Positions 1-29,057 of a stretch of 64,000 nucleotides of DNA are shown here, piece after piece. Source of the stretch: Gammaproteobacteria bacterium (GTDB taxonomy: Bacteria; Pseudomonadota; Gammaproteobacteria; Eutrophobiales; Eutrophobiaceae); the NCBI GenBank assembly GCA_016179185.1, contig JACORW010000018.1:5227-69226 (forward strand), written 5' to 3'. Under the pieces are notes generated by a model. It saw only the letters and a program-made list of their open reading frames with translations, was not told the origin of the DNA and did not search any database. Numbering within the stretch: the stretch's first letter is position 1; each line of letters opens with the position of its first letter. Position numbers and translations under genes: made by a program.

Positions 1-534
1 ACCGATGACGGCTACCTGCCGTGACCTTCTGGGTTTTCGCCCCATTGTCGGCCGGGGCTGCAGGCAGCGCTCGGTGAAGCGCGGGTTGACTGAATCGCCG
101 TCGGTGCCCAGCAGCAGCACGAGGTCGGCGCGATTGCGCAACTCCGTGAGCGTTGTCATAATCCAGCCGCGCCGTTGCACCACCAGCGCGTTGCTGATGA
201 CGGCATGACCGTGCATGTGGTCCACGGCGGCGCCGGTCTTCTCCGCCAGCGCCAGCGCGGCGCGGCATCCTGACGCGTCCGTCGCCATCCCGGCAATTAA
301 TGGCTGGTGTGATCGTTTCAGGACCCGGGCCGCATGTTTGACAGCCTGATCCAGCGTCACCGGCAGTCCCTGGACGCGCGCCCGCGGATCGGCGCCGGAC
401 TGGGCAAATCCGCTAACGGCGCGGTCGCAGCCCCTGGCGACGACCCGGGCCGTGTCGCCGTCCATTGCCACCATCAAATCGTCGCAGTGCAGGCCGCAGA
501 ACGGGCAGGTCACATCCTTTATCGTAGTTGACAT
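1..534 (-). CDS. fhcB: Formyltransferase/hydrolase complex subunit B (FhcB-type FwdB paralogue), 3' end runs off the window
   Basis: Not in the ORF track; translated by hand from ATG at 534: MSTTIKDVTCPFCGLHCDDL...LIAGMATDASGCRAALALAEKTGAAVDHMHGHA...TTLTELRNRADLVLLLG. It has the FwdB/FhcB N-terminal Cys cluster and the TTLxExxNRAD motif, but no Cys-His metal-ligand motif. Confidence 0.85.
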   Translation of the reverse strand, partial: MSTTIKDVTCPFCGLHCDDLMVAMDGDTARVVARGCDRAVSGFAQSGADPRARVQGLPVTLDQAVKHAARVLKRSHQPLIAGMATDASGCRAALALAEKTGAAVDHMHGHAVISNALVVQRRGWIMTTLTELRNRADLVLLLGTDGDSVNPRFTERCLQPRPTMGRKPRRSRQVAVIG

Positions 535-632
535 GTTCGTTACGTTACCGGATATGGAGGCATCCCGGCGTGTCCCGGAGACGCCGGGTTGCAGCGGGCG
601 GATCGACGGCCCAACATGGCTCCACGTGCGGC

Positions 633-2021
633 TTACGCCAGCAACGCGAGCATTTCCCTGACGTAGGTAAACTTCTCCCGCGGTTTGCCGAGATTCGCGC
701 CGCGTGCGACCTCGGCTGCGTCGATTCTCTTCCAGTCGGAGAAGCTGACGGGACGGGTGCCGCGCCCGTGGAGGAGACTGCGCAGAGAGGCGAATCCGGA
801 TTTTCCGCCTGCAGCGGAAAGTTTCGGCAGATCGGCCACCAGCGATGCCACGGTAGCCACGCTGTCGGCGCGATTTGTCCCAATGATACCCGTTGGCCCG
901 CGCTTGATCCATCCGGCGACGTATATCTGCGGGACCGACTGACCTTCGGCGACGACGCGCCCCGCGAGGTTCGGGATCGTCCCGGAACGGGGATCGAACG
1001 GCACGCCGGGCATGGCGATGCCGCGGTAGCCGATGCTGCGAAACACGAGTCCGGTCTCGAGCGACATGAATTTTCCGGTGCCGCGCGCGGACTGATTCAT
1101 TGGCGCGCCGGAGAGGACATTGTGTTCCAGCACGATGTTACGCACCCGGCTGTCGCCTTCAATGCGCGCCGGGCTCTTCTGAAACGTGAATACCACGCGC
1201 CGGCGCGCCTTTCCCGGGGGCCGGGCTGCAAAACCGGAGAAAATCTCCACAATGCGTTTCGCGCCGGCATTGCCCGCGCCGGCGATCTCCGCGGCGCTGG
1301 CCTCATTGAGGGCGAGTTCGGCCGGATCGATGCTGGCGTCGCATTCCTCCAATTCGCCGAATTCCTTCAATTCCTTCGAGGTGAATTTTGCCTGGGCCGG
1401 CCCGCGCCGCCCGACGACGAAAATCTCCCTGACCTTGCTGGTGCGCAGAACCTCCAGCGCGTGTTCGGCGATATCGGTGTGGGCCAGTTCCTGAGGCGAC
1501 CTTGCCAGTATTCTGGCGACGTCGGCGGCCACGTTTCCCTGGCCGATGATCACGGCCCGTTCATGGGAAAGGTCGAAAACGCGGTCGCGGAAATCGGGAT
1601 GGCCATTGTACCAGCCGACAAACTCGGTGGCAGTGTGGCTGCCGGCAAGGCTCTCGCCATCTATGCCGAGGGGTTTGTCCGCTTCGGCGCCGCACGCGAG
1701 GATCACGGCATCGTAGGCTTCGCACAGCTCGCCCACGCTCACGTCGTTACCGACGCGGATATTGCCGTAGTACTCGAAACCCGGCATTTCCGCGATCCGG
1801 GAATAAACATCAATTACCTGTTTCAGCTTGGCGTGATCCGGAGCGACGCCGCTGCGCACCAGCCCGTACGGCACCGGCAGGCGCTCGAGCATGCTGATCT
1901 GCACCGGCAATCCGGATTTGAACAGCGCCTCAGCCGCGTAAAATCCGCTTGGGCCGCTGCCGACGATGGCCACCTGCCACGGCGCGCCGGAGGCGCCCGA
2001 GCCTTCAGCCACGGCAATCAA
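633..2021 (-). CDS. Ferredoxin-NADP+ reductase, adrenodoxin reductase/FprA family
   Basis: VAIVGSGPSGFYAA, PYGLVRSGVAPDH, IGQGNVAADVAR and GWIKRGPTGIIGTN motifs. Confidence 0.9.
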   Translation of the reverse strand: MIAVAEGSGASGAPWQVAIVGSGPSGFYAAEALFKSGLPVQISMLERLPVPYGLVRSGVAPDHAKLKQVIDVYSRIAEMPGFEYYGNIRVGNDVSVGELCEAYDAVILACGAEADKPLGIDGESLAGSHTATEFVGWYNGHPDFRDRVFDLSHERAVIIGQGNVAADVARILARSPQELAHTDIAEHALEVLRTSKVREIFVVGRRGPAQAKFTSKELKEFGELEECDASIDPAELALNEASAAEIAGAGNAGAKRIVEIFSGFAARPPGKARRRVVFTFQKSPARIEGDSRVRNIVLEHNVLSGAPMNQSARGTGKFMSLETGLVFRSIGYRGIAMPGVPFDPRSGTIPNLAGRVVAEGQSVPQIYVAGWIKRGPTGIIGTNRADSVATVASLVADLPKLSAAGGKSGFASLRSLLHGRGTRPVSFSDWKRIDAAEVARGANLGKPREKFTYVREMLALLA

Positions 2022-2052
2022 CCCCGGTCACCAGTTTTTGGCTCGGCCCCGT

Positions 2053-2358
2053 TCAGAATCCGAGCGCGGATTTTCTTTCCTCCGCCCCGGGCAGGGGATC
2101 CATCTGCTCGCTGCATACCGGCAGACCCTTGGAGCGTGTGGCGTTGATCTCAATCCACTCGCGCTTGTCATCCGGGAGATCGTCTTCCTCAAAGATGGCC
2201 TGCACCGGGCATTCGGGGATGCACGCGCTGCAATCGATGCAGACGTCGGGGTCTATGTAAAGCATCTCGCCGTCGTAATGGAAACATTCTACGGGGCAAA
2301 CGGCGACGCAATCGGTGAAGCGGCAACCTTGGCAGTTGTCAGTGACTACGGTGGTCAT
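2053..2358 (-). CDS. fdxA: 7Fe ([3Fe-4S][4Fe-4S]) ferredoxin, FdxA family
   Basis: MTTVVTDNCQGCRFTDCVAVCPVECF...CIDCSACIPECP pattern, as in Azotobacter-type FdI; start placed at ATG 2358. Confidence 0.88.
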   Translation of the reverse strand: MTTVVTDNCQGCRFTDCVAVCPVECFHYDGEMLYIDPDVCIDCSACIPECPVQAIFEEDDLPDDKREWIEINATRSKGLPVCSEQMDPLPGAEERKSALGF

Positions 2359-2390
2359 GGGGTTTCCCTCGTTGCTGTGGCAATGACAAT

Positions 2391-3200
2391 TCAAATTGAC
2401 GGTGACAGGATCTCGCCGCGGTTAAGCTCCACCGCATCCCCGCACCAGCGGCGGTACGAGGCGGACAGCTGACCGTCCGTCACCGGCAGACCAAGTCTCC
2501 GCAGGTGGAGGAGATACAGGGGCAGAAACGACGGCCGGTATTCGCATGCGTAGGCGAATGTCGGCAGCACTTCCAGCGGCTGCATTGCGATGATCGTCCC
2601 GCGTTTCATGCCGGCCCCGGTCCGAATTCCCGCGGCGCCGAAAATTGTAACAGTGCCGGCCAGCATGTTGACACCGGCAAAATCGCCGCAGCTCCCGCCG
2701 ATGGCAATCAGGCCGCCGCGCATGCCGTGGCCGGCCTCGTTCCGGGCGGCGCCGTGAATGATGATTTCGCCGCCGGTCATGCCCACGGCGGCGCCGCGGT
2801 AAGCGCTGCCTGCGAGATGGCCGGCGCTGCCGCGTATGACGATACGCCCACCCCGCATCTCCGGGCCGACCCAGTCGCCCGCATTACCGGAGACGACGAT
2901 GGTGCCGCCGAGCATTTCCGCACCAAGATGGGCACCGGCGTGGCCGTCAATGTGGATCTGGCCGCAGGACATTGTCGCGCCGATGTGCTTGACCCGGGAC
3001 ATGTCTCCGCGCAGCTGGATGGTTTCACCGGGCGCGCCTGACACGGTGAACACTTCCGCCAGCGGCACCTGGCGATTTCCATAAAACACCGGCAGGCGCT
3101 CGATTTCGGCAATGGGCAGTTGCCTCAGGCGATCCGGAGTAATGCAGTCCGCTTCCACCGGTACCTCGGGCGCGGCGCGCAGTTCCAGCCGCAGGGTCAC
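2391..3200 (-). CDS. fwdC: Formylmethanofuran dehydrogenase subunit C (FwdC/FhcC)
   Basis: Repeated GxxMxGGxIxxxG beta-helix units; operon context. Confidence 0.92.
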   Translation of the reverse strand: MTLRLELRAAPEVPVEADCITPDRLRQLPIAEIERLPVFYGNRQVPLAEVFTVSGAPGETIQLRGDMSRVKHIGATMSCGQIHIDGHAGAHLGAEMLGGTIVVSGNAGDWVGPEMRGGRIVIRGSAGHLAGSAYRGAAVGMTGGEIIIHGAARNEAGHGMRGGLIAIGGSCGDFAGVNMLAGTVTIFGAAGIRTGAGMKRGTIIAMQPLEVLPTFAYACEYRPSFLPLYLLHLRRLGLPVTDGQLSASYRRWCGDAVELNRGEILSPSI

Positions 3201-4099
3201 GGCACGGCCCCGCCGTTCAGGAGGCTGTGCAGCCGGATCTGGTATTGCCCGAGGTTTCCGCCGTAATTGCCCGCCGAGATCGCGGCCAGACCGGGGCGGG
3301 CCGCGGCCTGCATGCCGGCGGCCATGGCGCAGCGCACGGCGTGTTCGCTCAGGCCGTCAATGACGATCTCCAGGGCGCAATTCACTTCGGGGCGCAGGCC
3401 GGTTGCGCCGGCAACGGAGCGCAGGGTGGGGCAAAAGGCATCGTTGGTCGAGGCAGGCAGGCCCTTGTAACGGGACCCCACCTTGCTGCCGCTGCGCACG
3501 ACCCCGCCGGGGAAGGGCAGGGCCACATCGGGCAGTGCGCGGATCGCGGCAACGGCGGCCTGGGCGGCGGCCACGGCCGTCCCGGCGTCCGTACCGCACA
3601 GAATCAGGTTGCCGCCGCCGACAGCCGGCTGCATCCCGAAACGATCCTGCACCAGAAACTCGCCGTCCATGACCGGGATGCGCCAGTAGCGCCGGTCGCC
3701 GATTTTCTTGCTCATCTGATATCCATCGCCGAAATATCGCAGTTTCCCGCCGATGCTCGTGTCATGACCGGAGTCCAGTCCCGCAAAGCATGCCGTCGTG
3801 GGACAGGTCATCACGCACTGCCCGATGCGCTCCACCAGCCGCTTGCCGAGCGCGGCCTTGTCCATCGCGAACAGGAGGATGCTCGCGCCGGGACGGCCGT
3901 CGGGCGTCTCCTGCGCCGCAAGCGCGCGTTCGATTCCAGCCTCGCACTTGCAGCCGATGACCGACGTGGCAAAGCCGGTCATGGATTGCGCCGCTGCCTG
4001 CGCCCATTCGGGGCCGGCCGCGGTGACGACCACGCGCGTGCCCCACATGGCGAATGCCTCGGCAAAAGTATCTTCGATGTGCGTGGATCCGATCTGCAT
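3197..4099 (-). CDS. ftr: Formylmethanofuran:H4MPT formyltransferase (Ftr/FhcD)
   Basis: IEDTFAEAF, GFATSVIGCKCEAG, TPDGRPG, GGVVRSGSKVGS and ISAGNYGGNLG motifs; real start likely ATG 4099. Confidence 0.93.
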   Translation of the reverse strand: MQIGSTHIEDTFAEAFAMWGTRVVVTAAGPEWAQAAAQSMTGFATSVIGCKCEAGIERALAAQETPDGRPGASILLFAMDKAALGKRLVERIGQCVMTCPTTACFAGLDSGHDTSIGGKLRYFGDGYQMSKKIGDRRYWRIPVMDGEFLVQDRFGMQPAVGGGNLILCGTDAGTAVAAAQAAVAAIRALPDVALPFPGGVVRSGSKVGSRYKGLPASTNDAFCPTLRSVAGATGLRPEVNCALEIVIDGLSEHAVRCAMAAGMQAAARPGLAAISAGNYGGNLGQYQIRLHSLLNGGAVP

Positions 4100-4106
4100 C
4101 GTCAGT

Positions 4107-5756
4107 TCAACCGGTCGCCGGTCGCAGCGGGATGACCTCGTGATCATGCAGGTAGCTGTCAGGGACTGCGTAATTGTCGAATTCGATGGAATAATAATTC
4201 TCGAAGAACGGACGCACCGCATCCACGATGGATGCGTCGTACTCGGGGGCAATGTGCAGCATCCGGCCGCTGAAGTCGGCGCAGAACTCGTGGTTATCTA
4301 TGATCATGTGGCCCGATTTGATTACGTAGCGTGGGGCGCTGAACATGCGTTCCCGGTCAGGGTGGTCGTCATAAATGGTGATGTCGGCGTCCGCGCCTGC
4401 TCCCAGGTGCCCCTTGTTGCGCAGGCCCAGCGCCCGTGCCGGCCCGGCGCGCGTGATGATGGCGATCTCGTTCAGGGAGTATTCGCGATCCAGGTCCGGC
4501 AGCGTGGTCCTGGCGATGGCGCGCCGGTTGACCCGCTGCATTTCCTGCTTCCGGAAATCGCGATCCATCAGCAGCCGGATGAGCTTTGGGTAACTCTGGA
4601 ACGAACCGCCATTGGGATGGTCCGTGGACAGGATGATGCGCCACGGGTCCGCAGACATCAGGAACAGCTCCAGTCCGATGGCCCATTGCAGGGCGTGCAC
4701 ATAGACTTTTTCCTGATAACTGAACGGCAGAATGCCGCAGCCGCTTTCGCATTCCGTGTCGGCGTTGATCCACTTGGCCTTCTTGATGCCGCGCAGCATG
4801 TAGGCCAGCGGGGCATCCGCGGTCATGATCGTGGACTTGCCGAACATGACCTGGCCCACGTCGCAGGTGATATTCGGATGCGCGTTCACGTAGTCGGCGA
4901 TCTCCCGGGCGGCGGAGCCCGGGTTCTTCCCGGGCTCACCGGCGTAGCTGTGAAACTGGATGTGGGCCACGTGCAGCCGCCGGTCACCGGCGGTCTTCAT
5001 GGTTTCCAGCGTGGTGCGGAAGTTGCCGCTGTGGCCGAGGTTGTTGCAGTGAATATGCGGCGGGTGCGGGAAACCGGCGTCGTTCGCCACCTCGACGAAG
5101 GCGTCAATGATCTGGCGTGGGCTGATGCCGAACACGTCGTTCTTTTCGTCCAGATCGGAAACATTGGAATTGCGCCGCCCCTTCCACGGTTCATCACCGC
5201 CGGGATTTACGAGCTTGGCCGTGTAGGCCTTGGTGGAATTAATCCACCAGGCCACCGCCTGCCGGAACTCCGACCTGCGCCCGTCCCGCAGCAGCTGCTG
5301 CAGAAAAATATTGTTGCCGAGCAGCACATAGAATCCCTTGTCGATGATCGGCGTGTCATGCAGTTCCTCCAGCGTGTGCCGCGCGCCGATGGGCGTGACC
5401 GCCGCTTCCATGGCCGTGGTGTATCCGAGCGTGGCATACCGGTAACCGGTGGCGAATGTTGACGGCACAATCCCGCCGGAGCCCGAGCGCGTAAACCTGG
5501 TTCCCGGGTGCGGGTCGCGGCGGTGGTCCTCCGGCTGGAGCTTGCGCGCGAGATTGACCTTGGGACCGGCGATGTGACAGTGAATGTCCACGCCGCCCGG
5601 CATGACGACCATGCCGCGGGCGTCTATGGTGCGATCGGGCTCCGCAACCGCGTCGGCGATCCTGCCGTCGCGCACGAACAGGGTGCGGGGTTCGCCGGCG
5701 ATCCGGTTGGCCGGGTCATGGACGCTGCCGTTGACGATGCACAGGGTGCTGGACAT
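4107..5756 (-). CDS. fwdA: Formylmethanofuran dehydrogenase subunit A (binuclear amidohydrolase)
   Basis: GGVDIHCHIAG, KLVNPGG, HIHCNNLG, HIQFHSY and STDHPNGG motifs. Confidence 0.95.
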   Translation of the reverse strand: MSSTLCIVNGSVHDPANRIAGEPRTLFVRDGRIADAVAEPDRTIDARGMVVMPGGVDIHCHIAGPKVNLARKLQPEDHRRDPHPGTRFTRSGSGGIVPSTFATGYRYATLGYTTAMEAAVTPIGARHTLEELHDTPIIDKGFYVLLGNNIFLQQLLRDGRRSEFRQAVAWWINSTKAYTAKLVNPGGDEPWKGRRNSNVSDLDEKNDVFGISPRQIIDAFVEVANDAGFPHPPHIHCNNLGHSGNFRTTLETMKTAGDRRLHVAHIQFHSYAGEPGKNPGSAAREIADYVNAHPNITCDVGQVMFGKSTIMTADAPLAYMLRGIKKAKWINADTECESGCGILPFSYQEKVYVHALQWAIGLELFLMSADPWRIILSTDHPNGGSFQSYPKLIRLLMDRDFRKQEMQRVNRRAIARTTLPDLDREYSLNEIAIITRAGPARALGLRNKGHLGAGADADITIYDDHPDRERMFSAPRYVIKSGHMIIDNHEFCADFSGRMLHIAPEYDASIVDAVRPFFENYYSIEFDNYAVPDSYLHDHEVIPLRPATG

Positions 5757-5801
5757 GCCCGGTACCGATCCAGGTTGTGGTGGTGCGCTGGGCCGCCGTG
5801 C

Positions 5802-7157
5802 TCAGGCGGTCAGCGGCAATTCGAAAGCGGACCTGGCGCCATGCGGGGTGCGGGCCAGCAGCAGCTCGCGCACCTTCTCCCGGATGGCCTTCAGGATGGA
5901 CTCGTCATCGGGAAACGGCGAATCGAATGCCTTGCGCATCGTGATCGGCACATCGTCCATCCGGTATACGGTGCCGCCGGTATTGATGCCGTAGGTCGCG
6001 GTCCGAAAGGCCACGCGGGCAAGACCGGAAGTCAGCGTCGCTTTCGGGTCCAGCGAGATCACGGGTATGCGTCGCAGGTGGGCGGTGGCCTCCCTGGGAA
6101 AATTGGACGCGGGATCGCTGGCGATGATCATCGCCGCATCGGCGTCGCCGCGCGCAAGGGTGTCCACCGTGGTGAATTCTCCGGGATTGAAGCGTGGATA
6201 GCCGCGGCTGAAATTGACGCCGAACGGATAGCCGGTCTGCCAGGACATGACGTTGTCCGCGCCGGTGACGTTGCCGTGGCCGCGCACCGGTTTGGCGACA
6301 AAATGGGTGAATTCATTCAAATCCGTGGCCAGCGCAAGCAGCGCGCCGGAATTGAAGTGCCGGCCGCGGGTCATGGTCAACCCCATGCCGAAGAACAGCA
6401 CGCCGTACCGGCAGCCTTTCATCCGCTGCACGAGATCCTCGATCGTGGCCGGCGGCACGCCGGTAATTTCCTCGATGTCCGCATGGATCGGGCGCCCCTT
6501 GACGCGCACCCGCAGCGCCCACAGCAGTTCAAAATCCTTGCCCGGCTTCAGTTGCACGAAGATGTTGGCGGCGGGGACGCTGGGCGTGCGGCGCACGTCG
6601 ATCACGACCACGGTGCGATCCTTCTTGCCGTTGGGGGTGAACATTCCCTTCGCCGTGACCGCGTAGCGGCCAAAGTGCCGCGGGTGGGATTCGGCCGGAT
6701 TGCCGCCCCAGTAGATCACCAGATCAGCGCGGTTCTTGACCTCTCCCAGCGTCATGGTGCTTTCACCGACACCCTGGAAGGCAATACCCGACGGGCCATG
6801 ACAAACCGATGTGGTGGTGTCGATGTTGCCGCGTACCATGTCCATGATTGCGACCGCCTGCCGCTGGGCCTCGCAGGTGGTATCGCTGAGGCCGTAGGCG
6901 ATCGGAAACCGCGCCTCCACCAGTATGCGCGCCGCCTCCGCGACGGCCGCGTCAATCGTGGCGGGTTTACCCTCCATCAAGGCGGCCGGCGCCTCTTCAA
7001 TGGTGTGTTCCGCAAACCAGGCCCGTCCCAGCACACAGGCATTCTTGGCCTTGACGATCCGTTTCTGCGTATCGTCCACGGTCAGGATCATGTCATCGCA
7101 GACGCATCCGCAAAAGGTGCAGGTGGCGTTTTCAACGACGCGCAGGTTCTCACTCAT
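5802..7157 (-). CDS. fwdB: Formylmethanofuran dehydrogenase subunit B, Mo/W-pterin catalytic type
   Basis: CTFCGCVCDD...NACVLG [4Fe-4S] motif, TTSVCHGP Cys-His ligand motif, HPRH, PVRGHGNV and GTVYRMD; ATG 7157 overlaps the fwdD stop. Confidence 0.93.
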   Translation of the reverse strand: MSENLRVVENATCTFCGCVCDDMILTVDDTQKRIVKAKNACVLGRAWFAEHTIEEAPAALMEGKPATIDAAVAEAARILVEARFPIAYGLSDTTCEAQRQAVAIMDMVRGNIDTTTSVCHGPSGIAFQGVGESTMTLGEVKNRADLVIYWGGNPAESHPRHFGRYAVTAKGMFTPNGKKDRTVVVIDVRRTPSVPAANIFVQLKPGKDFELLWALRVRVKGRPIHADIEEITGVPPATIEDLVQRMKGCRYGVLFFGMGLTMTRGRHFNSGALLALATDLNEFTHFVAKPVRGHGNVTGADNVMSWQTGYPFGVNFSRGYPRFNPGEFTTVDTLARGDADAAMIIASDPASNFPREATAHLRRIPVISLDPKATLTSGLARVAFRTATYGINTGGTVYRMDDVPITMRKAFDSPFPDDESILKAIREKVRELLLARTPHGARSAFELPLTA

Positions 7158-7531
7158 GGATTGACACCTTCGCTGTTGCGATGTCCGGCAGGCACTTTTT
7201 CGACGGTTACCGCCAGGTTTTTCGACAACGGCATGCCGCTGCCCGCGGTATCCGCCTCCATGAGTTCGCTGGAACACGGTCCATAGGCCATGAAGATCAT
7301 GCCGGAGGGGAGGTCCGCGGCCTTGCGCGGCGTGCAGGTGACCGTAGTCTCGCCGGCGTCGTTGCGGAGCCGGACGCGATCACCCTCCTTCAGTCCGAGC
7401 CGGGCCATATCCTGCTCGTTCATCTCCGCGGTGGAGGTGACCTGCTGGTATTCCGCTTTCAGCTTGCCCTTGTTCAGGGAGGTTCCCTGCTCGCTGGTGC
7501 GTCCCGCGATCAACAACATGGTTTCAGTCAT
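7154..7531 (-). CDS. fwdD: Formylmethanofuran dehydrogenase subunit D (molybdopterin dinucleotide-binding domain)
   Basis: LIAGRTSEQG, MNEQDMARLGL, GMIFMAYGP and TAGSGMPLSK are typical of FwdD/FmdD. Confidence 0.9.
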   Translation of the reverse strand: MTETMLLIAGRTSEQGTSLNKGKLKAEYQQVTSTAEMNEQDMARLGLKEGDRVRLRNDAGETTVTCTPRKAADLPSGMIFMAYGPCSSELMEADTAGSGMPLSKNLAVTVEKVPAGHRNSEGVNP

Positions 7532-7847
7532 GATCAGGTCCGAATTCGATTGCGCCGGGAGCTTGCCCCGAACAAGGGCAGTCCGGCAAGGCGTTTCCGT
7601 GTTGCCGGGAAAGGGGAGGGGCCTGCCAGCGCCGTCGGACCATCAACCTTGCCGCTGCCCTGCATGATACCTGAAGAACAGCGGATTTTCCCGGGAGTTC
7701 CCTGACATATGGCTGGTCAGGGTGGCGGCCAATTACCCGGTCCGCGCCTTCCGGCGCAACCGGACCGGGTAGTTCGCGGTGGTAAGATGCGCGGCGAGTC
7801 TTACCCCCAGCCTGGTTGCCCCCACGTGCAGCCGGAGGAGAGGCGCA

Positions 7848-8831
7848 GTGGCCCGAGACGTTCGAATCCATGTGCAGGCCCATGCCAGGCTGCATCTTGG
7901 TTTTCTGGACTTTCATGGTTCGCGCGGCCGCCAGTTCGGCAGCATCGGTCTTTCACTGCAGGACGTTGCGCTGGAGTTGGCGGTTGCCCCGGATGCAAGT
8001 ATCAATGTCACCGGCCCGGGTGGTGCGCGGGTCGAAGCCGTGGCGCGTGTGGTGCTGGAGAAAATTGGTCATGCCGGCGGTGCGAACATCCGGATAAGCC
8101 GCGCCATCCCGGAGCACGCCGGACTGGGCTCGGGCACCCAACTGGCCCTGGCGGTGGGTAGCGCCTGCGCGCGACTCGCCGGCGCGCGGTTGTCGCCCGA
8201 GGAGCTGGCGCAACTGCTGGTGCGGGGTCAGCGATCGGGGATCGGTATCGGGACGTTTTCCCTGGGTGGCTTCATCGTGGATGCGGGACGCGGCGCCGCA
8301 ACCAGCCTGCCGCCGGTCGTCAGCCGCTTGCCGGTGCCCGAGCAGTGGCGATTTGTCCTGATCATGGATCGCTCACGCCAAGGCGTCTGCGGCGATGAGG
8401 AGCGGCAGGCCTTCGTGGATCTGCCCGCAATGCCGGAGTCCCAGTCCGCGCATCTCTGCCGCATGGTGTTGCTGCAGCTTTTGCCTGCGCTGGTGGAGTC
8501 GGACTGCACCGCGTTCGGCGCCGGCGTCACCGATATCCAGTCGATCATCGGCGAATATTTTGCGGGCCGGCAGTCGGGACATTATCGAAGTCCCGACGTG
8601 GCGGCCGCACTCATGTCCATGATGGAATGCGGTGCCACCGGCAGCGGCCAGAGTTCCTGGGGGCCGACGGGATTCGCGATATTTCCCGATTCGGCGGCTG
8701 CGGCCCGCGCGGTGGAGCTTGCCCGCCGGCGCTGGCATGACAATCCACGCCTCGATTTTGTATCATGCCGCGCCGCCAACCACCCTGCGGTCATTCGGTC
8801 TGAGACCGCGGCCCGCCACGCGCACGGCTGA
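7848..8831 (+). CDS. mptG: Beta-ribofuranosylaminobenzene 5'-phosphate synthase
   Basis: ARLHLGFLD, HAGLGSGTQLAL, RSGIGIGTF..GGFIVDAG and GQSSWGPTGF; GTG at 7848 follows a GGAGGAG RBS. Confidence 0.92.
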   Translation: MARDVRIHVQAHARLHLGFLDFHGSRGRQFGSIGLSLQDVALELAVAPDASINVTGPGGARVEAVARVVLEKIGHAGGANIRISRAIPEHAGLGSGTQLALAVGSACARLAGARLSPEELAQLLVRGQRSGIGIGTFSLGGFIVDAGRGAATSLPPVVSRLPVPEQWRFVLIMDRSRQGVCGDEERQAFVDLPAMPESQSAHLCRMVLLQLLPALVESDCTAFGAGVTDIQSIIGEYFAGRQSGHYRSPDVAAALMSMMECGATGSGQSSWGPTGFAIFPDSAAAARAVELARRRWHDNPRLDFVSCRAANHPAVIRSETAARHAHG

Positions 8832-8878
8832 ACCGCCGGCGCGGGGCAGTCCCGGAAAATATTGCTGGAGATCCTCCG

Positions 8879-9796
8879 ATGAACGATCCGTATTTGCTGC
8901 ACATATTCAATCCCACGAAGAACGTGAGCCCTTTTGACGTCAACATGGCTTACGAGGCCGCGTTCAACGGCGTGATTCCGTACTCCAACGTGACGTTGGA
9001 GGAGATCCATGGACTGACCCAGGACACCATCTTCTCCCGCGGCCCCACCGGCGTGAAGCGCACCGGGATATTCATCGGCGGCAGGGAATTCGGCCTCGCC
9101 ATGGACATGCTGCAGCGGGCGCGGGCGGCCATGGTCCCGCCGTTCGAGGTGTCGGTATTTGTCGATCCAAGCGGAGCCATCACCACGGCAGCCGCGCTGA
9201 TGGCCTGTATCGAAGCCGCAATCAAGAAAGTGTCACAGGGAGATCTGAGGGGCAGGAAGGTGCATATCTTCGGCGGGACCGGCCCGGTGGGGGTATGCGC
9301 GGGGATCCTGGCGGACAGTTGCGGCGCCGAGGTGTATCTCGCCAGCCAGCGCGGCCAGTCGGTGGCGCAGGAGGTCGCCGACGAATACAACCACCGCTTC
9401 GATGTGAACATGCACGGCACAAGCAGCAGCTCGGACGCGGAAATCCGGAATATCGTCAGTGACACCGACGTCATCGTCGGTTCCGCCAAGGCCGGCGTGC
9501 GGGTTGTGACGCAGTCTCAGTTGGAACAGGCGAAAAACCTGCTGGTTGCCGCGGACGTCAACGCGGTACCGCCCGCCGGTATCGAAGGCGTCGGTGTGCA
9601 TGACATGGGCAAGCCGCTCGAGTTCACGCCCGGCAAGGCGCTGGGGATCGGCGCGCTGGCCATCGGCAACATCAAATACAAGGTGCATTACCGGATGTTC
9701 GAATTGATGAAGGGTTCCGAAAAGCCTCTGTACCTCGATCACGTGCAGGCATTTGAAAGCGCGCGCGAGCTCGCCGGGAAGAAACTGCATGGGTGA
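8879..9796 (+). CDS. mtdB: NAD(P)-dependent methylene-H4MPT dehydrogenase
   Basis: SPFDVNMAYEA, DTIFSRGP, MVPPFEVSVFVDPSGAITTAAA, GGTGPVG and DVNAVPP. Confidence 0.9.
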   Translation: MNDPYLLHIFNPTKNVSPFDVNMAYEAAFNGVIPYSNVTLEEIHGLTQDTIFSRGPTGVKRTGIFIGGREFGLAMDMLQRARAAMVPPFEVSVFVDPSGAITTAAALMACIEAAIKKVSQGDLRGRKVHIFGGTGPVGVCAGILADSCGAEVYLASQRGQSVAQEVADEYNHRFDVNMHGTSSSSDAEIRNIVSDTDVIVGSAKAGVRVVTQSQLEQAKNLLVAADVNAVPPAGIEGVGVHDMGKPLEFTPGKALGIGALAIGNIKYKVHYRMFELMKGSEKPLYLDHVQAFESARELAGKKLHG

Positions 9797-10781
9797 GATC
9801 CCGTCAAGAACCTGGCCCAGCGTCAGCACGCTGACCGCGCCGCTCGTGGAGGGCCTGATCGCCCGGCGCGGCGATCTGGATCTGGGTGTTTTCAAGCCGG
9901 ATCAAAAGGCCACGGTCATTGATGCGGGCATCGAACGGCCGGGTGGGCTGGAGGCGGGGCGTCGCATCGCGGAAATCTGTCTCGGCGGCCTTGGGTCAGT
10001 GCGCTTTCGCTCCGCGTCCAGCCCGGGCCCGTGGAACTGGTGGGTGGACGTGCATGCCGGCAGCCCGGTTCTGGCGTGCCTTGGCAGCCAATACGCGGGG
10101 TGGAGTCTGTCCCATGGTGAGGGGAAGAGCGGATTTCGCGCCCTGGGATCCGGTCCCGGCCGGGCTGTGGGAAGCGGCGAGGAACTGTTTGAAGAGTTGG
10201 GATACCGCGACCGTGCCGACGGCACGGTGTTGATTCTCGAGGTGGACAAGCCGCCTCCGGCGGGACTCGTGGAAGAAATATCTGAAAAATGCGGCATTTA
10301 CGAGGACAATCTAACGTTTATTCTTACACCCACTTCCAGCCTGGCCGGTGTCGTGCAGATCGTTGCGCGCGTGCTGGAAACGGCGCTTCACAAGGCACAC
10401 GCCCTCAAGTTTCCGTTGGCGGCGATCATTGATGGTGCGGGAAGTGCGCCGCTGTGCCCTCCGGCGCCGGACTTGCTGACCGCCATGAGCCGGACCAACG
10501 ATGCAATCCTGTTCGCCGGGCAGGTTCATCTGTTTGTGCGCGCGGAAGATCCCGAGGCGGAGGCGCTTGCGCAGCGGCTTCCCAGCAGCGCGTCGCCGGA
10601 TTTCGGGCGGCCCTTCGGCGAAGTCTTCAAGCGCGCAAATTTCGACTTTTACAAGATTGACCCGCTGCTGTTCAGTCCGGCGTGTGTCACCGTGACCAAC
10701 CTGCGATCGGGAACGTCTTTTCACGCCGGGAAGATCCATTCCGAACTGCTCAACGAGTCCTTTTTCGGCAAGTTCGGCTGA
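9789..10781 (+). CDS. mch: Methenyl-H4MPT cyclohydrolase
   Basis: ACLGSQYAGW, LGSGPGRA, QIVARVLETALHKAH, MSRTNDAIL and DFYKIDPLLFSPA. Confidence 0.95.
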   Translation: MGEIPSRTWPSVSTLTAPLVEGLIARRGDLDLGVFKPDQKATVIDAGIERPGGLEAGRRIAEICLGGLGSVRFRSASSPGPWNWWVDVHAGSPVLACLGSQYAGWSLSHGEGKSGFRALGSGPGRAVGSGEELFEELGYRDRADGTVLILEVDKPPPAGLVEEISEKCGIYEDNLTFILTPTSSLAGVVQIVARVLETALHKAHALKFPLAAIIDGAGSAPLCPPAPDLLTAMSRTNDAILFAGQVHLFVRAEDPEAEALAQRLPSSASPDFGRPFGEVFKRANFDFYKIDPLLFSPACVTVTNLRSGTSFHAGKIHSELLNESFFGKFG

Positions 10782-10817
10782 AGAATCACCCGGCCTGCCG
10801 CACCGGCCGGCTTGCGA

Positions 10818-11684
10818 ATGCGCCAACAGAGCCCGTGGACACAGGAAGCCCTGGAACGGGCGGTTCTTGAGAGTCTGCTCGGCGAAATCAACGCCCTGAA
10901 GCCGGGCAATGTGCATCGGTTTTCCGGCGGGCATGGCATGCGCTACGAGGACTTTCTCGTCAGCGCGCAAGCGGTCGTTCCCATTCTTTGCAGTACGGAT
11001 CTGACCCTGGGCGAACGCTGTCTCGAAGCCGTGCTCGCCACGCGCAAGGCGGTCTGCGCCAACACAAATCTGGGCATAGTGTTGCTGTTTGCGCCGATAA
11101 TTTGTGCGGCGCAACAGGGCGATTCGCCGTCTGGCTTCAGAACCCGGATCCGAAAGGTGATCTCCGCCGCAGATCATGACGATACGGTGCTGATTTACCG
11201 GGCAATTGCCGTTGCCGAGCCAGGCGGGTTGGGGCGGGTGCCGGTCCATGACGTCCACGCTGAGCCGGACTGTTCCCTGCTGGAGGCCATGTCGGCGGCA
11301 GAAGACAGGGACCGCGTTGCGAGTCAGTACACAAACGCCTGCGCGGACCTTTTTGCCGTGGGTTTGCCGGCCCTCAAAGGGTATGTGCGGCGCGGTATTG
11401 GTGTAGAATGGGCCGCAGTTGGCTGCTATCTGCGTTTTCTTGCCTGCTTCCCGGATTCCCACATCCGGCGCAAGCACGGTGCGGAAGTGGCACGGCAGGT
11501 CAGCCAGCGTGCGGAAGCGACGCTGGCCGAGTTGGAACAACATAACGATCCCAGCACCATGACCGGTCAGTTGCTGGGACTAGACAGGGAATGGAAGGAC
11601 TCAGGCATTAATCCAGGCACCAGCGCCGATCTGACCGCGGCAAGCCTGTTGCTGTATCACCTGGGAGTGGAGGATTTCGGCTGA
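10818..11684 (+). CDS. CitG-family triphosphoribosyl-dephospho-CoA synthase-like protein (orf7 of H4MPT clusters)
   Basis: EINALKPGNVH, NTNLGIVLL, PDSHIRRKHG and INPGTSADL. Confidence 0.88.
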   Translation: MRQQSPWTQEALERAVLESLLGEINALKPGNVHRFSGGHGMRYEDFLVSAQAVVPILCSTDLTLGERCLEAVLATRKAVCANTNLGIVLLFAPIICAAQQGDSPSGFRTRIRKVISAADHDDTVLIYRAIAVAEPGGLGRVPVHDVHAEPDCSLLEAMSAAEDRDRVASQYTNACADLFAVGLPALKGYVRRGIGVEWAAVGCYLRFLACFPDSHIRRKHGAEVARQVSQRAEATLAELEQHNDPSTMTGQLLGLDREWKDSGINPGTSADLTAASLLLYHLGVEDFG

Positions 11685-11799
11685 TTGGGGATGCCGGTGC
11701 ATCCTGACGATCGCCCGGCCGCGCGACGCGCGGCGGCGAATGGTGGGATTGCACGGTAACAGTTTCAGCGTTGCATAATCTAAACAGGAGGAGAAGCAA

Positions 11800-12312
11800 A
11801 TGGCAGTCATCGATCGAGTACTTGTAGGCGAATCGCTGGTTGGCGACGGCAATGAAGTCGCGCACATCGACCTGATCATGGGACCGCGCGGCAGCGCCGC
11901 CGAAACCGGATTCTGCAATGCACTGGTCAACAATAAGGACGGTTTCACGACCTTGCTGGCCGTGGTCGCACCGAATCTGGCGTGCAAGCCGAATACGGTC
12001 CTGTTCAACAAGGTAACCATCAAGGGCGCCAAGCAGGCGGTGCAGATGTTCGGACCCGCGCAGCGCGCAGTCTCCATGGCCGTCATGGATTGCGTCAAGG
12101 ACGGCACCATTCCGGCCAATGAGGCGGACGACATTTTCATCTGCGTCGGCGTATTCATTCACTGGCTGGCGGCGGATGACAAGAAAATCCAGGACTACAA
12201 CTATCAGGCGGTAAAGGAGTCCATCCAGCGCGCCGTGAAACGTGAGCCGAAGTCCGCGGAAGTGCTGAGCAAGCGCGGCAGCGCCAACCACCCGTTCCAG
12301 GCGCATGCGTGA
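11800..12312 (+). CDS. fae: Formaldehyde-activating enzyme
   Basis: [37 protein letters not shown] and VGVFIHW; strong AGGAGGAG RBS. Confidence 0.97.
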
Positions 12313-28292: not shown

Positions 28293-29057
28293 CTATACCC
28301 GGTAGGCGCTGTCCGGGCGGGCGTCCGTCGCGGTATTGGGCGGATAAGATCGCCACTTGTCGGCGTAGTACCTCTGTCGCATGTCACCGTCGGACCGGCG
28401 ATTGAAGGTGAGATAAATGTTGCGTCGCGGACGATCGCTGGTATTCGCCGGCGATCCGTGCGGTACGTAACAGTCGAAGAAAACCACATCCCCGGGCTCA
28501 CCCTCGAGCAGCAGATATTCATCCTCGGGCTGATACGGCGGGTCGGCCTCGGACAGCGGCTGCCACTCCGGCCCCATCAGGTGGTGCTGATAGTTACCGG
28601 ATTTCATGATGCTCAACGCCGCATTTTCGCGGGTGTTTGGATCCACCATGATTGCCATGGTGATGAAAAATTTTCCATAGGCGTTCCAGCCCGCAGCCTG
28701 GTCCTGGTGCAGCTTGTCCGGGCGGCACCCCGGAAGTTTGTAATTGACCTTCTCCTTGAACAGCAGCGGCGGCTCATCCAGGAGCTCGGTGAGGCATTGC
28801 AGCGTCCTGGCGTTGAGCAGCAGCTTTTCAATCTCCGCATTGTGTTCTCCAAGGAGAAATTCCGCCCGCACCAGCAGGTTTGCCCCGGTTACCGGGCTGC
28901 GCTCGTAGTACTTTGTCTCGCGCCCCGGTGCCGGCGGCGCCTGCCGCAATCGTTCGAGCCAGTCGGCCAGGCGCCCAACCTCCGCCGGCCCGAAGAATCC
29001 CCTGAGCAAGACAAACCCCTTGTGCCTGAAAAAAGCAATTTGTTCCGTGGTGAGCAT
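28293..29057 (-). CDS. Fe(II)/2OG dioxygenase, PhyH family (PhnY-like)
   Basis: FKEKVNYKLPG, LHQDQAAGW (HxD), VPHGSPAN and RRNIYLTFN. Confidence 0.85.
   Translation of the reverse strand: MLTTEQIAFFRHKGFVLLRGFFGPAEVGRLADWLERLRQAPPAPGRETKYYERSPVTGANLLVRAEFLLGEHNAEIEKLLLNARTLQCLTELLDEPPLLFKEKVNYKLPGCRPDKLHQDQAAGWNAYGKFFITMAIMVDPNTRENAALSIMKSGNYQHHLMGPEWQPLSEADPPYQPEDEYLLLEGEPGDVVFFDCYVPHGSPANTSDRPRRNIYLTFNRRSDGDMRQRYYADKWRSYPPNTATDARPDSAYRV

What the first reader, a model, noticed from the sequence alone, without database searches (positions are those of the whole stretch)
1..7531. Catalytic Mo/W Fwd-type dehydrogenase and a degenerate FhcB side by side in one bacterial operon
Seen: the order is fwdD-fwdB-fwdA-ftr-fwdC-fdx-fpr-fhcB on one strand. 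FwdB keeps the [4Fe-4S] Cys motif, the Cys-His ligand (SVCHGP) and the RGH Arg, and FwdD is present. The second B paralogue has DHMHGH at the ligand position. Established: proteobacterial Fhc lacks the pterin cofactor and FwdD and releases formate, whereas archaeal Fwd/Fmd interconverts formyl-MFR and CO2. Inference: this organism can end H4MPT-linked formaldehyde oxidation in two ways, as formate or directly as CO2, and may preserve an intermediate stage of the Fwd-to-Fhc transition.
Basis: partly seen in the sequence, partly recalled or inferred. Interest (0 to 1): 0.75.

Follow-up and report, generated by a model that had tools for sequence, protein, structure and literature searches.

The report
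Two formyl-methanofuran enzymes in one operon
An uncultured groundwater bacterium encodes, one after the other, an archaeal-style metal enzyme that should oxidise a carrier-bound one-carbon unit straight to CO2 and the usual bacterial version that only releases formate; the pairing is common in its relatives, and I found no description of it in print.

Summary
On the minus strand lie fwdD-fwdB-fwdA-ftr-fwdC, then fdxA and fpr, then a second set, fhcB-fhcA-fhcD-fhcC. Most of the second set lies left of the window. The second B gene is full length and not a pseudogene.

Set 1 looks catalytic. FwdB keeps the four [4Fe-4S] cysteines and the Cys-His and Arg of the Mo/W site, invariant in 84 of 84 orthologues. 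It is about 50% identical to solved archaeal FwdB, and it has its own FwdD. Set 2 is a typical Fhc: 0 of 38 orthologues keep Cys, His or Arg at those sites.

The 11-gene order recurs in dozens of uncultured gammaproteobacterial species. In some closed genomes set 1 is the only terminal enzyme.

The best reading is two exits from H4MPT-linked formaldehyde oxidation. One is an Ftr-docked Fwd complex that gives CO2 and passes electrons through a 7Fe ferredoxin and an FprA-type reductase to NADP+. The other is Fhc, which gives formate.

A fwdDBA-ftr-fwdC operon is published for Actinobacteria. I found no paper on the gammaproteobacterial version, its ferredoxin/reductase module or its tandem with Fhc. 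No biochemistry or expression data exist.

The parts
7154..7531 (-). fwdD, 125 aa. It corresponds to the fourth, pterin-capping domain of formate dehydrogenases. Its stop codon overlaps the fwdB start (ATGA).
   Evidence: PF01568 2.7e-13. Solved FwdD chains: 2ki8_A 1.6e-19, 8rja_D 1.2e-13, 5t5i_D 5.2e-12. An orthologue lies upstream of fwdB in 76 of 77 related loci that reach far enough. It is the only copy in the genome. The ATGA overlap was read directly.
5802..7157 (-). fwdB, 451 aa. Catalytic-type B subunit with the [4Fe-4S] cysteines C13, C16, C20, C41 and the Mo/W-site residues C119, H120, R292.
   Evidence: TIGR03129 507 bits. 5t5i_B 2.4e-112 and 9sfi_Q 8.7e-115, with Cys/Sec-His and Arg aligned. 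All seven residues are invariant in 84 of 84 sequences.
4107..5756 (-). fwdA, 549 aa. Amidohydrolase-type formyl-methanofuran subunit.
   Evidence: TIGR03121 702 bits. Best solved matches are archaeal FwdA (9sw6_I 475 bits, 5t5i_A 470 bits), ahead of M. extorquens FhcA (392 bits).
3197..4099 (-). ftr, 300 aa. Formylmethanofuran:H4MPT formyltransferase, embedded between fwdA and fwdC as fhcD is in fhc clusters.
   Evidence: PF01913 and PF02741, NF002554 435 bits. 52.5% identical to the second copy, fhcD. Predicted to dock on FwdC.
2391..3200 (-). fwdC, 269 aa. Beta-helix scaffold subunit with a C-terminal helix-loop-helix.
   Evidence: TIGR03122 277 bits. Model pLDDT 95.4, with helices at 226-235 and 242-246. 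Foldseek: 5t5i_C E 7.6e-18, TM 0.88; 6s6y_C E 5.4e-16, TM 0.92.
2053..2358 (-). fdxA, 7Fe-type ferredoxin. About 101 aa from the ATG at 2358; the open frame starts at TTG 2394.
   Evidence: Best solved matches are A. vinelandii 7Fe ferredoxin I entries, about 1e-31 to 1e-30. NF045490 115.6 bits, below the 135 cut-off. A second paralogue, 52% identical, lies on contig C91. fdxA and fpr follow fwdC in 49 of 53 related loci.
633..2021 (-). fpr, 462 aa. FprA/adrenodoxin-reductase-type NADPH:ferredoxin oxidoreductase.
   Evidence: 1lqt_A (M. tuberculosis FprA) 6.7e-118; 1cjc_A (adrenodoxin reductase) 1.4e-103. No close paralogue in the genome.
1..534 (-). 5' part of fhcB (422 aa in all). The rest, with fhcA, fhcD, fhcC and a fused NuoE/NuoF-type gene, lies left of the window: L001 = contig C100:1-13000, fhcB 4498-5760, fhcA 2833-4494, fhcD 1930-2826, fhcC 1094-about 1924.
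   Evidence: ORFs. Whole gene TIGR03129 283 bits, below the 327.8 cut-off. Aligned to 5t5i_B at 3.9e-42 with Cys118 to Ala, His119 to Val, Arg288 to Gly. FhcA best match is 6s6y_A, 455 bits. FhcC TIGR03122 219 bits; NuoE/F-type hits.
7779..12312 (+). Divergently oriented H4MPT island holding the single upstream pathway that feeds both complexes: mptG 7779-8831, mtdB 8879-9796, mch 9753-10781, CitG-like 10812-11684, fae 11800-12312.
   Evidence: NCBIfam: mptG NF040726, mch TIGR03120 363 bits, fae TIGR03126 243 bits. Pfam: Mpt_N 3.5e-34, CitG 1.3e-65.

Best explanation
The organism is an uncultured groundwater gammaproteobacterium. It has a XoxF/MxaF-type alcohol dehydrogenase; no pmoA or RuBisCO was found. 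It runs one fae-mtdB-mch pathway to formyl-H4MPT and has two terminal machines encoded in one co-directional array.

Machine 1 (fwdD-fwdB-fwdA-ftr-fwdC) is a real Mo- or W-pterin formylmethanofuran dehydrogenase with its formyltransferase docked on subunit C, as in Fhc. Ftr moves the formyl group to (methylo)furan. FwdA splits off formate into an internal path. FwdB/D oxidises the formate to CO2. The two electrons leave through the FwdB [4Fe-4S] cluster to the co-encoded 7Fe ferredoxin FdxA. The FprA-type reductase then passes them to NADP+.

Machine 2 (fhcB-fhcA-fhcD-fhcC) is the ordinary non-redox formyltransferase/hydrolase. It releases free formate, which goes either to formate-tetrahydrofolate ligase for biosynthesis or to an NAD-linked formate dehydrogenase.

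Shown here: gene content, residues, synteny and distribution.
Inferred: pterin binding, the oxidative direction, the ferredoxin/NADP+ route and the division of labour.
For: Catalytic marks of set 1:
- Cys-His and Arg align to Cys118/His119/Arg288 of 5t5i_B and to the selenocysteine position of 9sfi_Q.
- These residues and the four cluster cysteines are invariant in 84 of 84 sequences, with 173 of 451 columns invariant.
- fwdD lies beside fwdB in 76 of 77 loci.

Constraint: in the same related loci FwdB is 74-88% identical to the window's copy, FhcB only 35-43%.

Orthology: FwdA scores best against archaeal FwdA (475 against 392 bits). FhcA scores best against M. extorquens FhcA (455 against 399 bits).

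Set 2 is degenerate: Cys, His and Arg are each kept in 0 of 38 sequences.

Ftr docking:
- The FwdC model has helices at 226-235 and 242-246. FhcC has its FhcD-binding helix-loop-helix in that region, where archaeal FwdC has a hairpin (PMC6926001, passages).
- The FwdC+Ftr complex prediction scored 0.82, best of 3 controls 0.00. That mark was reached by 116 of 157 solved complexes and 2 of 215 mismatched pairs. The runs agree in at least 96% of contacts and the partner's pLDDT is at least 92. Contacts include FwdC 221-232. My own alignments were used, so the counts hold only roughly.

Electron module:
- fdxA+fpr directly follow fwdC in 49 of 53 loci, and in a 50th they sit directly upstream.
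- Fpr matches M. tuberculosis FprA at 6.7e-118; FdxA matches 7Fe ferredoxin I at about 1e-31.
- The operon's FdxA is an extra paralogue.

Set 1 can stand alone:
- 7 of 20 FwdB-type genomes in a class sample of 400 show no FhcB-type gene; 5 of these are closed.
- In the window's own order, 12 of 99 FwdB-type genomes show a single match, 6 of them in a genus with 1.0-1.5 Mb genomes.

Fate of formate:
- FtfL is present in the window's genome (880 bits) and in 8 of 9 Fwd+Fhc genomes, but in only 1 of 5 genomes without Fhc.
- In two same-family genomes fhcC is followed by a fused NuoE/F-type gene. In one of them a 938-aa molybdopterin-type gene comes next.

Cofactor supply: MobA and ModA are present.

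Operon: the fwdD/fwdB ATGA overlap, and no excess of terminator-like sites (5 found, 9.3 expected).
Against: - No activity, metal or expression data exist; no RNA run was listed.
- FwdD and FdxA score below NCBIfam's curated cut-offs, and FwdB hits no Pfam model at E 0.001.
- The archaeal electron subunits FwdF and FwdG are not in the cluster.
- The link to FdxA/Fpr rests on gene order alone. 4 of 53 loci lack the pair after fwdC, although one of them has it directly upstream.
- Pterin-synthesis genes do not discriminate. The genome and all 5 closed genomes without Fhc carry other molybdopterin enzymes and MobA.
- A like complex (FhcC-FhcD, 6S6Y) is solved, so the complex pass may be memory of that structure.
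- Foldseek ranks archaeal FwdC first by E-value and FhcC first only by TM-score.
- The FtfL pattern covers few families (f1, f15, f16, f40, f11 against f53, f151, f228), and related genomes are not independent.
- fhcB does not follow fpr in 12 of 47 loci.
- FprA-type enzymes are known for NADPH-to-ferredoxin transfer (recalled), so the direction assumed here is thermodynamic reasoning, not evidence.
Confidence: 0.55

Rival explanations
1. Set 1 is a true Fwd-type dehydrogenase, but FdxA and Fpr are not its redox partners. Electrons go to another acceptor, such as a housekeeping ferredoxin or a quinone-linked system. The two genes merely travel with the cluster.
For: The link is synteny only. 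A second FdxA exists elsewhere in the genome. 3 of 53 loci have no fdxA/fpr next to the fwd genes (L036, L068, L085).
Against: The pair is adjacent in 50 of 53 loci across several families, including one rearranged locus where it moved to the other side and stayed adjacent. It also stays with set 1 in genomes that lack Fhc (L086, L088, L089).
Confidence: 0.2
2. Set 1 runs in the reductive direction, or in both directions. It would fix CO2 onto (methylo)furan with ferredoxin reduced by NADPH through Fpr, as archaeal Fwd does in methanogens.
For: Archaeal Fwd is reversible and works reductively in hydrogenotrophs (PMC6926001, passages). FprA-type enzymes normally pass electrons from NADPH to ferredoxin (recalled).
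Against: NADPH (about -320 mV) is far too weak a donor for the CO2/formyl-methanofuran couple (about -530 mV; both values recalled). No bifurcating or energy-driven module is in the cluster. The neighbours are the oxidative set fae, mtdB and mch, and a XoxF/MxaF-type dehydrogenase is present. No RuBisCO was found, but the genome is 86% complete.
Confidence: 0.12
3. Set 1 is a second, non-redox Fhc isoenzyme. The Cys-His-Arg set and FwdD are relics, and both complexes release formate, perhaps under different conditions or with different furan cofactors.
For: No biochemical proof of pterin binding exists. Many members of the wider B family are degenerate: only 15 of 122 full-length representatives showed Cys-His plus Arg in an automatic alignment.
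Against: The seven key residues are invariant in 84 of 84 sequences, and FwdD is retained in 76 of 77 loci. FwdB is about twice as conserved as the scaffold FhcB in the same genomes. This is not how relics behave. In set 2 the same positions vary freely.
Confidence: 0.08

Closest known systems
Tungsten formylmethanofuran dehydrogenase FwdABCDFG of Methanothermobacter wolfeii (PDB 5T5I) and other solved archaeal Fwd/Fmd (9SFI, 8RJA, 9SW6, 7BKB)
   Same: Subunits A, B, C and D are all present. B aligns over its full length (E 2.4e-112) with the cluster motif, Cys118/His119 and Arg288 kept. A scores 470 bits and D 5.2e-12. The C fold matches at TM 0.88.
   Different: No FwdF/FwdG polyferredoxin genes are in the cluster; a 7Fe ferredoxin and an FprA-type reductase stand there instead. 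An ftr gene sits inside the operon. The C subunit has a helix-loop-helix where archaeal FwdC has a hairpin (PMC6926001, passages). The host is a bacterium with an oxidative H4MPT island.
Formyltransferase/hydrolase complex FhcABCD of Methylorubrum extorquens (PDB 6S6Y; Hemmann et al. 2019, PMC6926001, passages read)
   Same: Set 2 has the same gene order, fhcB-A-D-C, and the ligand Cys, His and Arg are lost. FhcA's best solved match is 6s6y_A. No second FwdD exists. Set 1 shares the embedded formyltransferase and the predicted C-Ftr docking.
   Different: Set 2's FhcB keeps the N-terminal domain with all four cluster cysteines (37-38 of 38 sequences). M. extorquens FhcB lacks that domain. Set 1 keeps everything Fhc has lost: the ligand residues, the cluster and FwdD.
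fwdDBA-ftr-fwdC operon of Hakuba Actinobacteria single-cell genomes (Merino et al. 2020, PMC7325909, passages read)
   Same: The same five-gene order, with ftr between A and C. A B subunit with the N-terminal [4Fe-4S] domain and Cys118 is described there, and no fwdE/F/G.
   Different: That case is an anaerobic Wood-Ljungdahl context in another phylum, said to lack methanopterin-synthesis genes. The passages I read mention no fdxA-fpr module and no tandem Fhc. Here the operon sits in a full H4MPT island beside Fhc.
F420-reducing formylmethanofuran dehydrogenase of the ethane oxidiser Ca. Ethanoperedens (PDB 8RJA; PMC11493965, abstract and search listing only)
   Same: It is a precedent for an oxidative Fwd whose electron-output module is swapped for another acceptor. 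8rja_B matches at 5.5e-109.
   Different: That enzyme is archaeal, and its acceptor is F420 through a different module. Here the proposed acceptor is NADP+ through a soluble-type ferredoxin and FprA.
FprA (1LQT) of Mycobacterium tuberculosis and 7Fe ferredoxin I of Azotobacter vinelandii
   Same: Fpr matches FprA at 6.7e-118 over its full length. FdxA matches ferredoxin I over residues 4-95 at about 1e-31.
   Different: Neither known protein is linked to C1 carriers. The operon's FdxA is a diverged extra copy, below the NCBIfam cut-off and 52% identical to the other copy in the genome.

Membership tests
Fwd/Fmd formylmethanofuran dehydrogenase (set 1) | B subunit with an N-terminal [4Fe-4S] cysteine motif | tested here: met
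   C13, C16, C20 and C41 align to the 5t5i_B motif and are invariant in 84 of 84 sequences.
Fwd/Fmd formylmethanofuran dehydrogenase (set 1) | Mo/W ligand Cys or Sec, with the adjacent His and the catalytic Arg (Cys118, His119, Arg288 of M. wolfeii FwdB) | tested here: met
   SVCHGPS and VRGHGNVTG align to these residues. C119, H120 and R292 are invariant in 84 of 84 sequences. No selenocysteine form was seen: the in-frame TGAs in two relatives were a stop codon and a frameshift.
Fwd/Fmd formylmethanofuran dehydrogenase (set 1) | A separate FwdD subunit (the fourth, pterin-capping domain) | tested here: met
   PF01568 2.7e-13. Solved FwdD chains match at 1.6e-19 to 5.2e-12. Present in 76 of 77 loci. 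The curated NCBIfam FwdD cut-off is not reached: 74.8 against 175 bits.
Fwd/Fmd formylmethanofuran dehydrogenase (set 1) | FwdA amidohydrolase and FwdC beta-helix subunits | tested here: met
   TIGR03121 702 bits and TIGR03122 277 bits, both above their cut-offs. The metal-ligand residues of FwdA were not checked one by one.
Fwd/Fmd formylmethanofuran dehydrogenase (set 1) | Polyferredoxin electron subunits FwdF/FwdG | tested here: not met
   No such gene is in the cluster. The only Fe-S gene there is a 7Fe FdxA-type ferredoxin, whose matches to 5t5i_F and 5t5i_G are weak (1.1e-8 and 9.3e-5). The rest of the genome was not searched for FwdF/G.
Fwd/Fmd formylmethanofuran dehydrogenase (set 1) | Bound Mo or W bis-pterin cofactor, and formyl-methanofuran:acceptor oxidoreductase activity | not testable with these tools
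   MobA and ModA are present, but other molybdopterin enzymes need them too.
Fhc formyltransferase/hydrolase complex (set 2) | B subunit without the ligand Cys, His and Arg, and no FwdD | tested here: met
   Ala, Val and Gly occupy these positions. Each residue is kept in 0 of 38 orthologues. The genome has a single FwdD, beside fwdB.
Fhc formyltransferase/hydrolase complex (set 2) | B subunit lacking the N-terminal Fe-S domain, as in M. extorquens FhcB | tested here: not met
   The domain and its four cysteines are present in 37, 38, 37 and 38 of 38 sequences. In the class sample most FhcB-type matches in other Gammaproteobacteria also start near query residue 5-12. This trait may therefore be special to M. 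extorquens rather than defining.
Fhc formyltransferase/hydrolase complex (set 2) | Gene order fhcB-A-D-C with an Ftr-type D subunit | tested here: met
   ORFs in L001. FhcC TIGR03122 219 bits. FhcA best match 6s6y_A, 455 bits. The order is as given in PMC6926001 (passages).
Fhc formyltransferase/hydrolase complex (set 2) | Releases formate; methylofuran held as a prosthetic group | not testable with these tools
   The conserved basic patch for the polyglutamate tail was not mapped, because I had no reference positions.
Fhc formyltransferase/hydrolase complex (set 1 considered as a member) | Loss of the dehydrogenase features | tested here: not met
   Set 1 keeps all of them, so it is not filed as Fhc. 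It does share the Ftr docking trait.

The most novel reading that the evidence does not exclude
An order-level clade of uncultured Gammaproteobacteria, and scattered other families, end H4MPT-linked formaldehyde oxidation without free formate. They would use a FwdDBA-Ftr-FwdC supercomplex that carries the formyl group on a tethered furan cofactor from Ftr to FwdA, oxidises it to CO2 at a Mo/W centre, and delivers low-potential electrons through a dedicated 7Fe ferredoxin and FprA to NADP+. This complex would be a living form of the state between archaeal Fwd and bacterial Fhc, with Ftr already docked and the dehydrogenase not yet lost. In reduced genomes it would be the only terminal enzyme.
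Probability: 0.4. Interest if true: 0.75.

Novelty: new variant of a known kind. Interest (0 to 1): 0.62.

Why it matters
Accounts of bacterial methylotrophy end the H4MPT pathway at Fhc and formate. A 2016 opinion article stated that fwdD is not present in Proteobacteria or Planctomycetes (PMC5020050, whole text read).

Distribution found here:
- A catalytic-type FwdB with FwdD occurs in 99 of 126 species genomes of the window's order.
- It occurs in 20 of 400 genomes of a family-even class sample.
- In a differently drawn phylum sample it occurs in only 1 of 400.
- Its nearest outside relatives are named Pirellulales and Planctomycetota.

If the enzyme works as read, these bacteria skip the exergonic hydrolysis step. 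That step is given as -22.9 kJ/mol in PMC6926001 (passage). They would capture electrons at a much lower potential than formate dehydrogenase does, and they would make NADPH directly.

This would change carbon and redox budgets drawn from metagenomes, where the fwd and fhc genes are annotated alike. It would also offer an Fwd from a bacterium for CO2/formate catalysis work, and a concrete test case for how Fhc arose from Fwd.

Tried and rejected
- Selenocysteine form of FwdB. Two relatives showed an in-frame TGA. Reading them showed a normal stop after the gene and a frameshifted assembly, both with Cys at the site. Rejected.
- Pterin genes kept only for FwdB. The 5 closed genomes without Fhc all have MobA, but also 2-4 other molybdopterin-enzyme matches each. 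Not discriminating.
- Joining contig C100's left end to contig C84, which starts with a NuoF-type open frame and a 921-aa Fdh-alpha. There is no DNA overlap and the protein segments differ. Not joined.
- Tree of B subunits with 122 full-length cluster representatives. The gammaproteobacterial FwdB forms a tight clade among members that keep the ligand residues, several of them FwdD-FwdB fusions. The library has no names and the alignment was automatic, so I draw no origin or direction from it.
- The listing of cluster members, to name those representatives, could not be made: the database was switched off. Names came only from a homologue search with the closest representative.
- Expression: no RNA holder was listed. 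The runs that hold the DNA are groundwater metagenomes.
- Promoter and terminator scan: nothing above the shuffled expectation.
- Literature. None returned a paper describing the gammaproteobacterial fwd-fdxA-fpr-fhc array.
- Adam et al. 2019 (Nat Microbiol) is probably the most relevant phylogenomic study. It is not held, so I did not see it, and it may already cover bacterial Fwd.
- No supplements were opened.

Full report
**What is there**

The window is part of contig C100 of a 2.58 Mb, 63% G+C, 86%-complete metagenome-assembled genome. The nearest FwdB homologues are labelled 'Gammaproteobacteria bacterium'. The DNA is held by groundwater metagenome runs.

- fwdD, 7154-7531
- fwdB, 5802-7157
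- fwdA, 4107-5756
- ftr, 3197-4099
- fwdC, 2391-3200
- fdxA, 2053-2358
- fpr, 633-2021
- the start of a second B gene, 1-534

Family scans agree. The fwdD stop and fwdB start overlap as ATGA. Terminator-like sites in the region are fewer than in shuffles, 5 against 9.3 expected.

**Left of the window**

I fetched the first 13 kb of the contig (L001). The second B gene is complete at 422 aa. It is followed by fhcA (553 aa), fhcD (298 aa) and fhcC, and then by a fused NuoE/NuoF-type gene that runs off the contig end.

The locus therefore holds two complete paralogous complexes, not one complex with a spare B gene. The paralogues are old: B 28%, A 45%, Ftr/D 52% and C 34% identical. The genome has no further B paralogue and only one FwdD.

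On the other side of fwdD, divergently oriented, lie mptG, mtdB, mch, a CitG-like gene, fae and cofactor-synthesis genes. That is one copy of the upstream H4MPT pathway.

**Is set 1 catalytic?**

- FwdB aligns end to end with solved archaeal FwdB chains: 9sfi_Q 8.7e-115, 5t5i_B 2.4e-112, 8rja_B 5.5e-109. It matches M. extorquens FhcB only at 5.4e-14.
- Counting along the printed alignment, the window's Cys-His falls on Cys118-His119 of 5t5i_B and on the selenocysteine position of 9sfi_Q. Its Arg falls on Arg288. The N-terminal CxxCxxxC...C motif is kept.
- I took orthologues from 83 related loci. With the window's copy, all four cluster cysteines, the Cys, the His and the Arg are invariant in 84 of 84 sequences, and 173 of 451 columns are invariant.
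- FwdD matches solved FwdD chains and lies upstream of fwdB in 76 of 77 loci that reach far enough.
- In the same loci FwdB is 74-88% identical to the window's copy, while FhcB is 35-43%. This fits a cofactor-binding catalytic subunit beside a scaffold.

**Set 2 is Fhc**

- The positions aligned to Cys118, His119 and Arg288 are Ala, Val and Gly.
- Among 38 orthologues, none has Cys, His or Arg at the respective site.
- FhcA's best solved match is M. extorquens FhcA (455 bits) over archaeal FwdA (399 bits). For set 1's FwdA the order is reversed, 475 against 392 bits.
- The order fhcB-A-D-C is that of M. extorquens (PMC6926001, passages).
- One difference: this FhcB keeps the N-terminal domain and its four cysteines, in 37-38 of 38 sequences. 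The M. extorquens protein lacks that domain (PMC6926001, passage).

**Set 1 is not simply archaeal Fwd**

- It has an ftr gene between A and C, as Fhc has.
- The FwdC model (pLDDT 95.4) has two helices at 226-235 and 242-246. According to Hemmann et al., FhcC has a helix-loop-helix there that binds FhcD, where archaeal FwdC has a hairpin.
- Foldseek gives 5t5i_C the best E-value (7.6e-18, TM 0.88, rmsd 3.1). It gives 6s6y_C the best superposition (E 5.4e-16, TM 0.92, rmsd 2.0).
- A complex prediction of FwdC with Ftr scored 0.82, best of 3 controls 0.00. That mark was reached by 116 of 157 solved complexes and 2 of 215 mismatched pairs. The runs agree in at least 96% of contacts and the partner's pLDDT is at least 92.
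- The predicted contacts include FwdC 221-232. I used my own alignments, so those counts hold only roughly. The FhcC-FhcD complex is solved, so the pass may reflect likeness only.
- The archaeal polyferredoxin genes fwdF and fwdG are not in the cluster.

**The electron module**

- Fpr matches M. tuberculosis FprA, an NADPH-ferredoxin reductase, at 6.7e-118 over its whole length.
- FdxA matches A. vinelandii 7Fe ferredoxin I at about 1e-31.
- The genome has another FdxA paralogue on contig C91, 52% identical, so the operon copy is an extra one.
- fdxA+fpr follow fwdC in 49 of 53 related loci that extend at least 2.2 kb past fwdC. One of the four exceptions has the pair directly upstream of fwdD.
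- The pair also stays with set 1 in closed genomes that lack Fhc.
- From this I infer the route FwdB cluster to FdxA to Fpr to NADP+.
- The oxidative direction is argued from recalled potentials: about -530 mV for CO2/formyl-methanofuran and about -320 mV for NADP+. It also fits the oxidative neighbours fae, mtdB and mch.

**Distribution**

Of these, 584 were confirmed as relatives, and the best 80 loci were kept. All 80 are metagenome-assembled genomes, mostly labelled Gammaproteobacteria.
- The full order fwdD-B-A-ftr-C-fdxA-fpr-fhcB-A-D-C appears in 22 of the 80. Many others are cut by contig ends. fhcB follows fpr in 35 of 47 loci that reach at least 1.8 kb past fpr.
- In a family-even sample of 400 genomes of the class, 20 have a FwdB-type gene (at least 66% identical). 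Of these, 13 also have an FhcB-type gene and 7 do not. Another 31 genomes have the FhcB type only.
- Four of the 20, all among the 13, are genomes flagged as unpublished: G141, G308, G296 and G039. The counts 20 and 13 rest partly on them.
- Five of the seven Fwd-only genomes are closed, at 1.7-2.6 Mb.
- A differently drawn sample of the phylum found the FwdB type in 1 of 400 genomes, a same-family relative.
- In the window's own order (one family, 126 species genomes including this one), 99 have the FwdB type, 10 only the FhcB type and 17 neither.
- Twelve of those 99 show a single match, six of them in a genus with 1.0-1.5 Mb genomes. Fifty match rows were not listed, so the split is approximate.
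- The closest cluster representative outside the clade is a 582-aa FwdD-FwdB fusion, 52% identical. Its named relatives are Pirellulales and Planctomycetota.

**Why two machines**

- The genome has formate-tetrahydrofolate ligase at 880 bits. It has a XoxF/MxaF-type dehydrogenase at 608 bits. No hexulose-phosphate synthase match reached the cut-off. No pmoA or RuBisCO was found at 86% completeness.
- FtfL occurs in 8 of 9 other genomes with both sets; the miss is 75% complete. It occurs in 1 of 5 closed genomes without Fhc.
- In two same-family genomes fhcC is followed by the fused NuoE/F-type gene. In one of them a 938-aa molybdopterin-type gene comes next. This fits an NAD-linked formate dehydrogenase.
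- The pattern fits Fhc as supplier of free formate for the folate pool and NAD-FDH, and Fwd as a direct dissimilatory exit.
- It rests on few, related lineages and is only a correlation.

**What is known in print**

- Chistoserdova (2016, PMC5020050, whole text read) wrote that the fwdD homologue is not present in Planctomycetes or Proteobacteria.
- Hemmann et al. (2019, PMC6926001, passages) defined what Fhc has lost. They proposed three steps from Fwd to Fhc: loss of the dehydrogenase, attachment of the formyltransferase to C, and a binding site for polyglutamyl methylofuran.
- Wells et al. (2023, PMC10100899, passages) counted 149 bacterial FwdB hits and argued for transfer from Archaea.
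- Merino et al. (2020, PMC7325909, passages) described a fwdDBA-ftr-fwdC operon with Cys118 and the cluster domain in Actinobacteria. This is the closest precedent.
- Lemaire et al. (2024, PMC11493965, abstract only) showed an archaeal Fwd wired to F420.
- My ten searches found nothing on the gammaproteobacterial array, its fdxA-fpr module or its tandem with Fhc.
- Adam et al. 2019 could not be read and may bear on this.

**Verdict**

The locus is best described as two full complexes. Set 1 combines archaeal-type catalysis with Fhc-type architecture and has its own ferredoxin/NADP+ module.

It is a new variant of a known kind. It is widespread in uncultured lineages and untested at the bench. 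The main weaknesses are that pterin binding, the product, the direction and the electron route are all inferred from sequence and gene order.

Noticed in passing
L001:4498-5760 (fhcB; window 1-534 is its 5' part): The degenerate FhcB keeps the N-terminal domain and all four [4Fe-4S] cysteines (37-38 of 38 orthologues). The solved M. extorquens FhcB lacks that domain. A redox-dead scaffold that conserves a cluster is unexplained.
   Followed up: partly
window 17952-22001 (-): The ribonucleotide reductase alpha subunit is 1349 aa against a 965-position profile. It matches in two stretches and also gives ATP-cone-like N-terminal hits. It may hold an insertion such as an intein, or extra cones.
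   Followed up: no
contig C84:1-3534 (L004) and the left end of C100: C84 begins with a 5'-open NuoF-type frame followed by a 921-aa Fdh-alpha (738 bits). The segment resembles the frame at C100's end but is not identical to it, and the DNA does not overlap. This means either two fdsB paralogues or strain heterogeneity at a contig break. A XoxF/MxaF-type gene lies 3 kb further on (C84:6248-7984).
   Followed up: partly
P0121 and relatives: The nearest relatives of the gammaproteobacterial FwdB outside the clade are FwdD-FwdB fusion proteins of 570-606 aa and unfused forms of about 445 aa. They are named Pirellulales or Planctomycetota. A 2016 article listed that phylum as lacking fwdD.
   Followed up: partly
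genomes G866-G872 (genus g542): Seven genomes of 1.0-1.5 Mb in the window's family all keep the FwdB-type gene. Six of them show no FhcB-type match. Genome reduction seems to spare Fwd rather than Fhc.
   Followed up: no
window 28293-29147 (-): A weak match to methylphosphonate hydroxylase (133 bits against a cut-off of 500). This may be another C1-related oxygenase.
   Followed up: no
window 29250-31058 (-): A 602-aa protein that joins a DCC1-like thiol-disulfide oxidoreductase domain to lipase-maturation-factor (LMF1) domains. LMF1 is best known from animals (recalled).
   Followed up: no
contig C91:24354-24677: A second FdxA-type ferredoxin, 52% identical to the operon copy. It is presumably the housekeeping one.
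   Followed up: no
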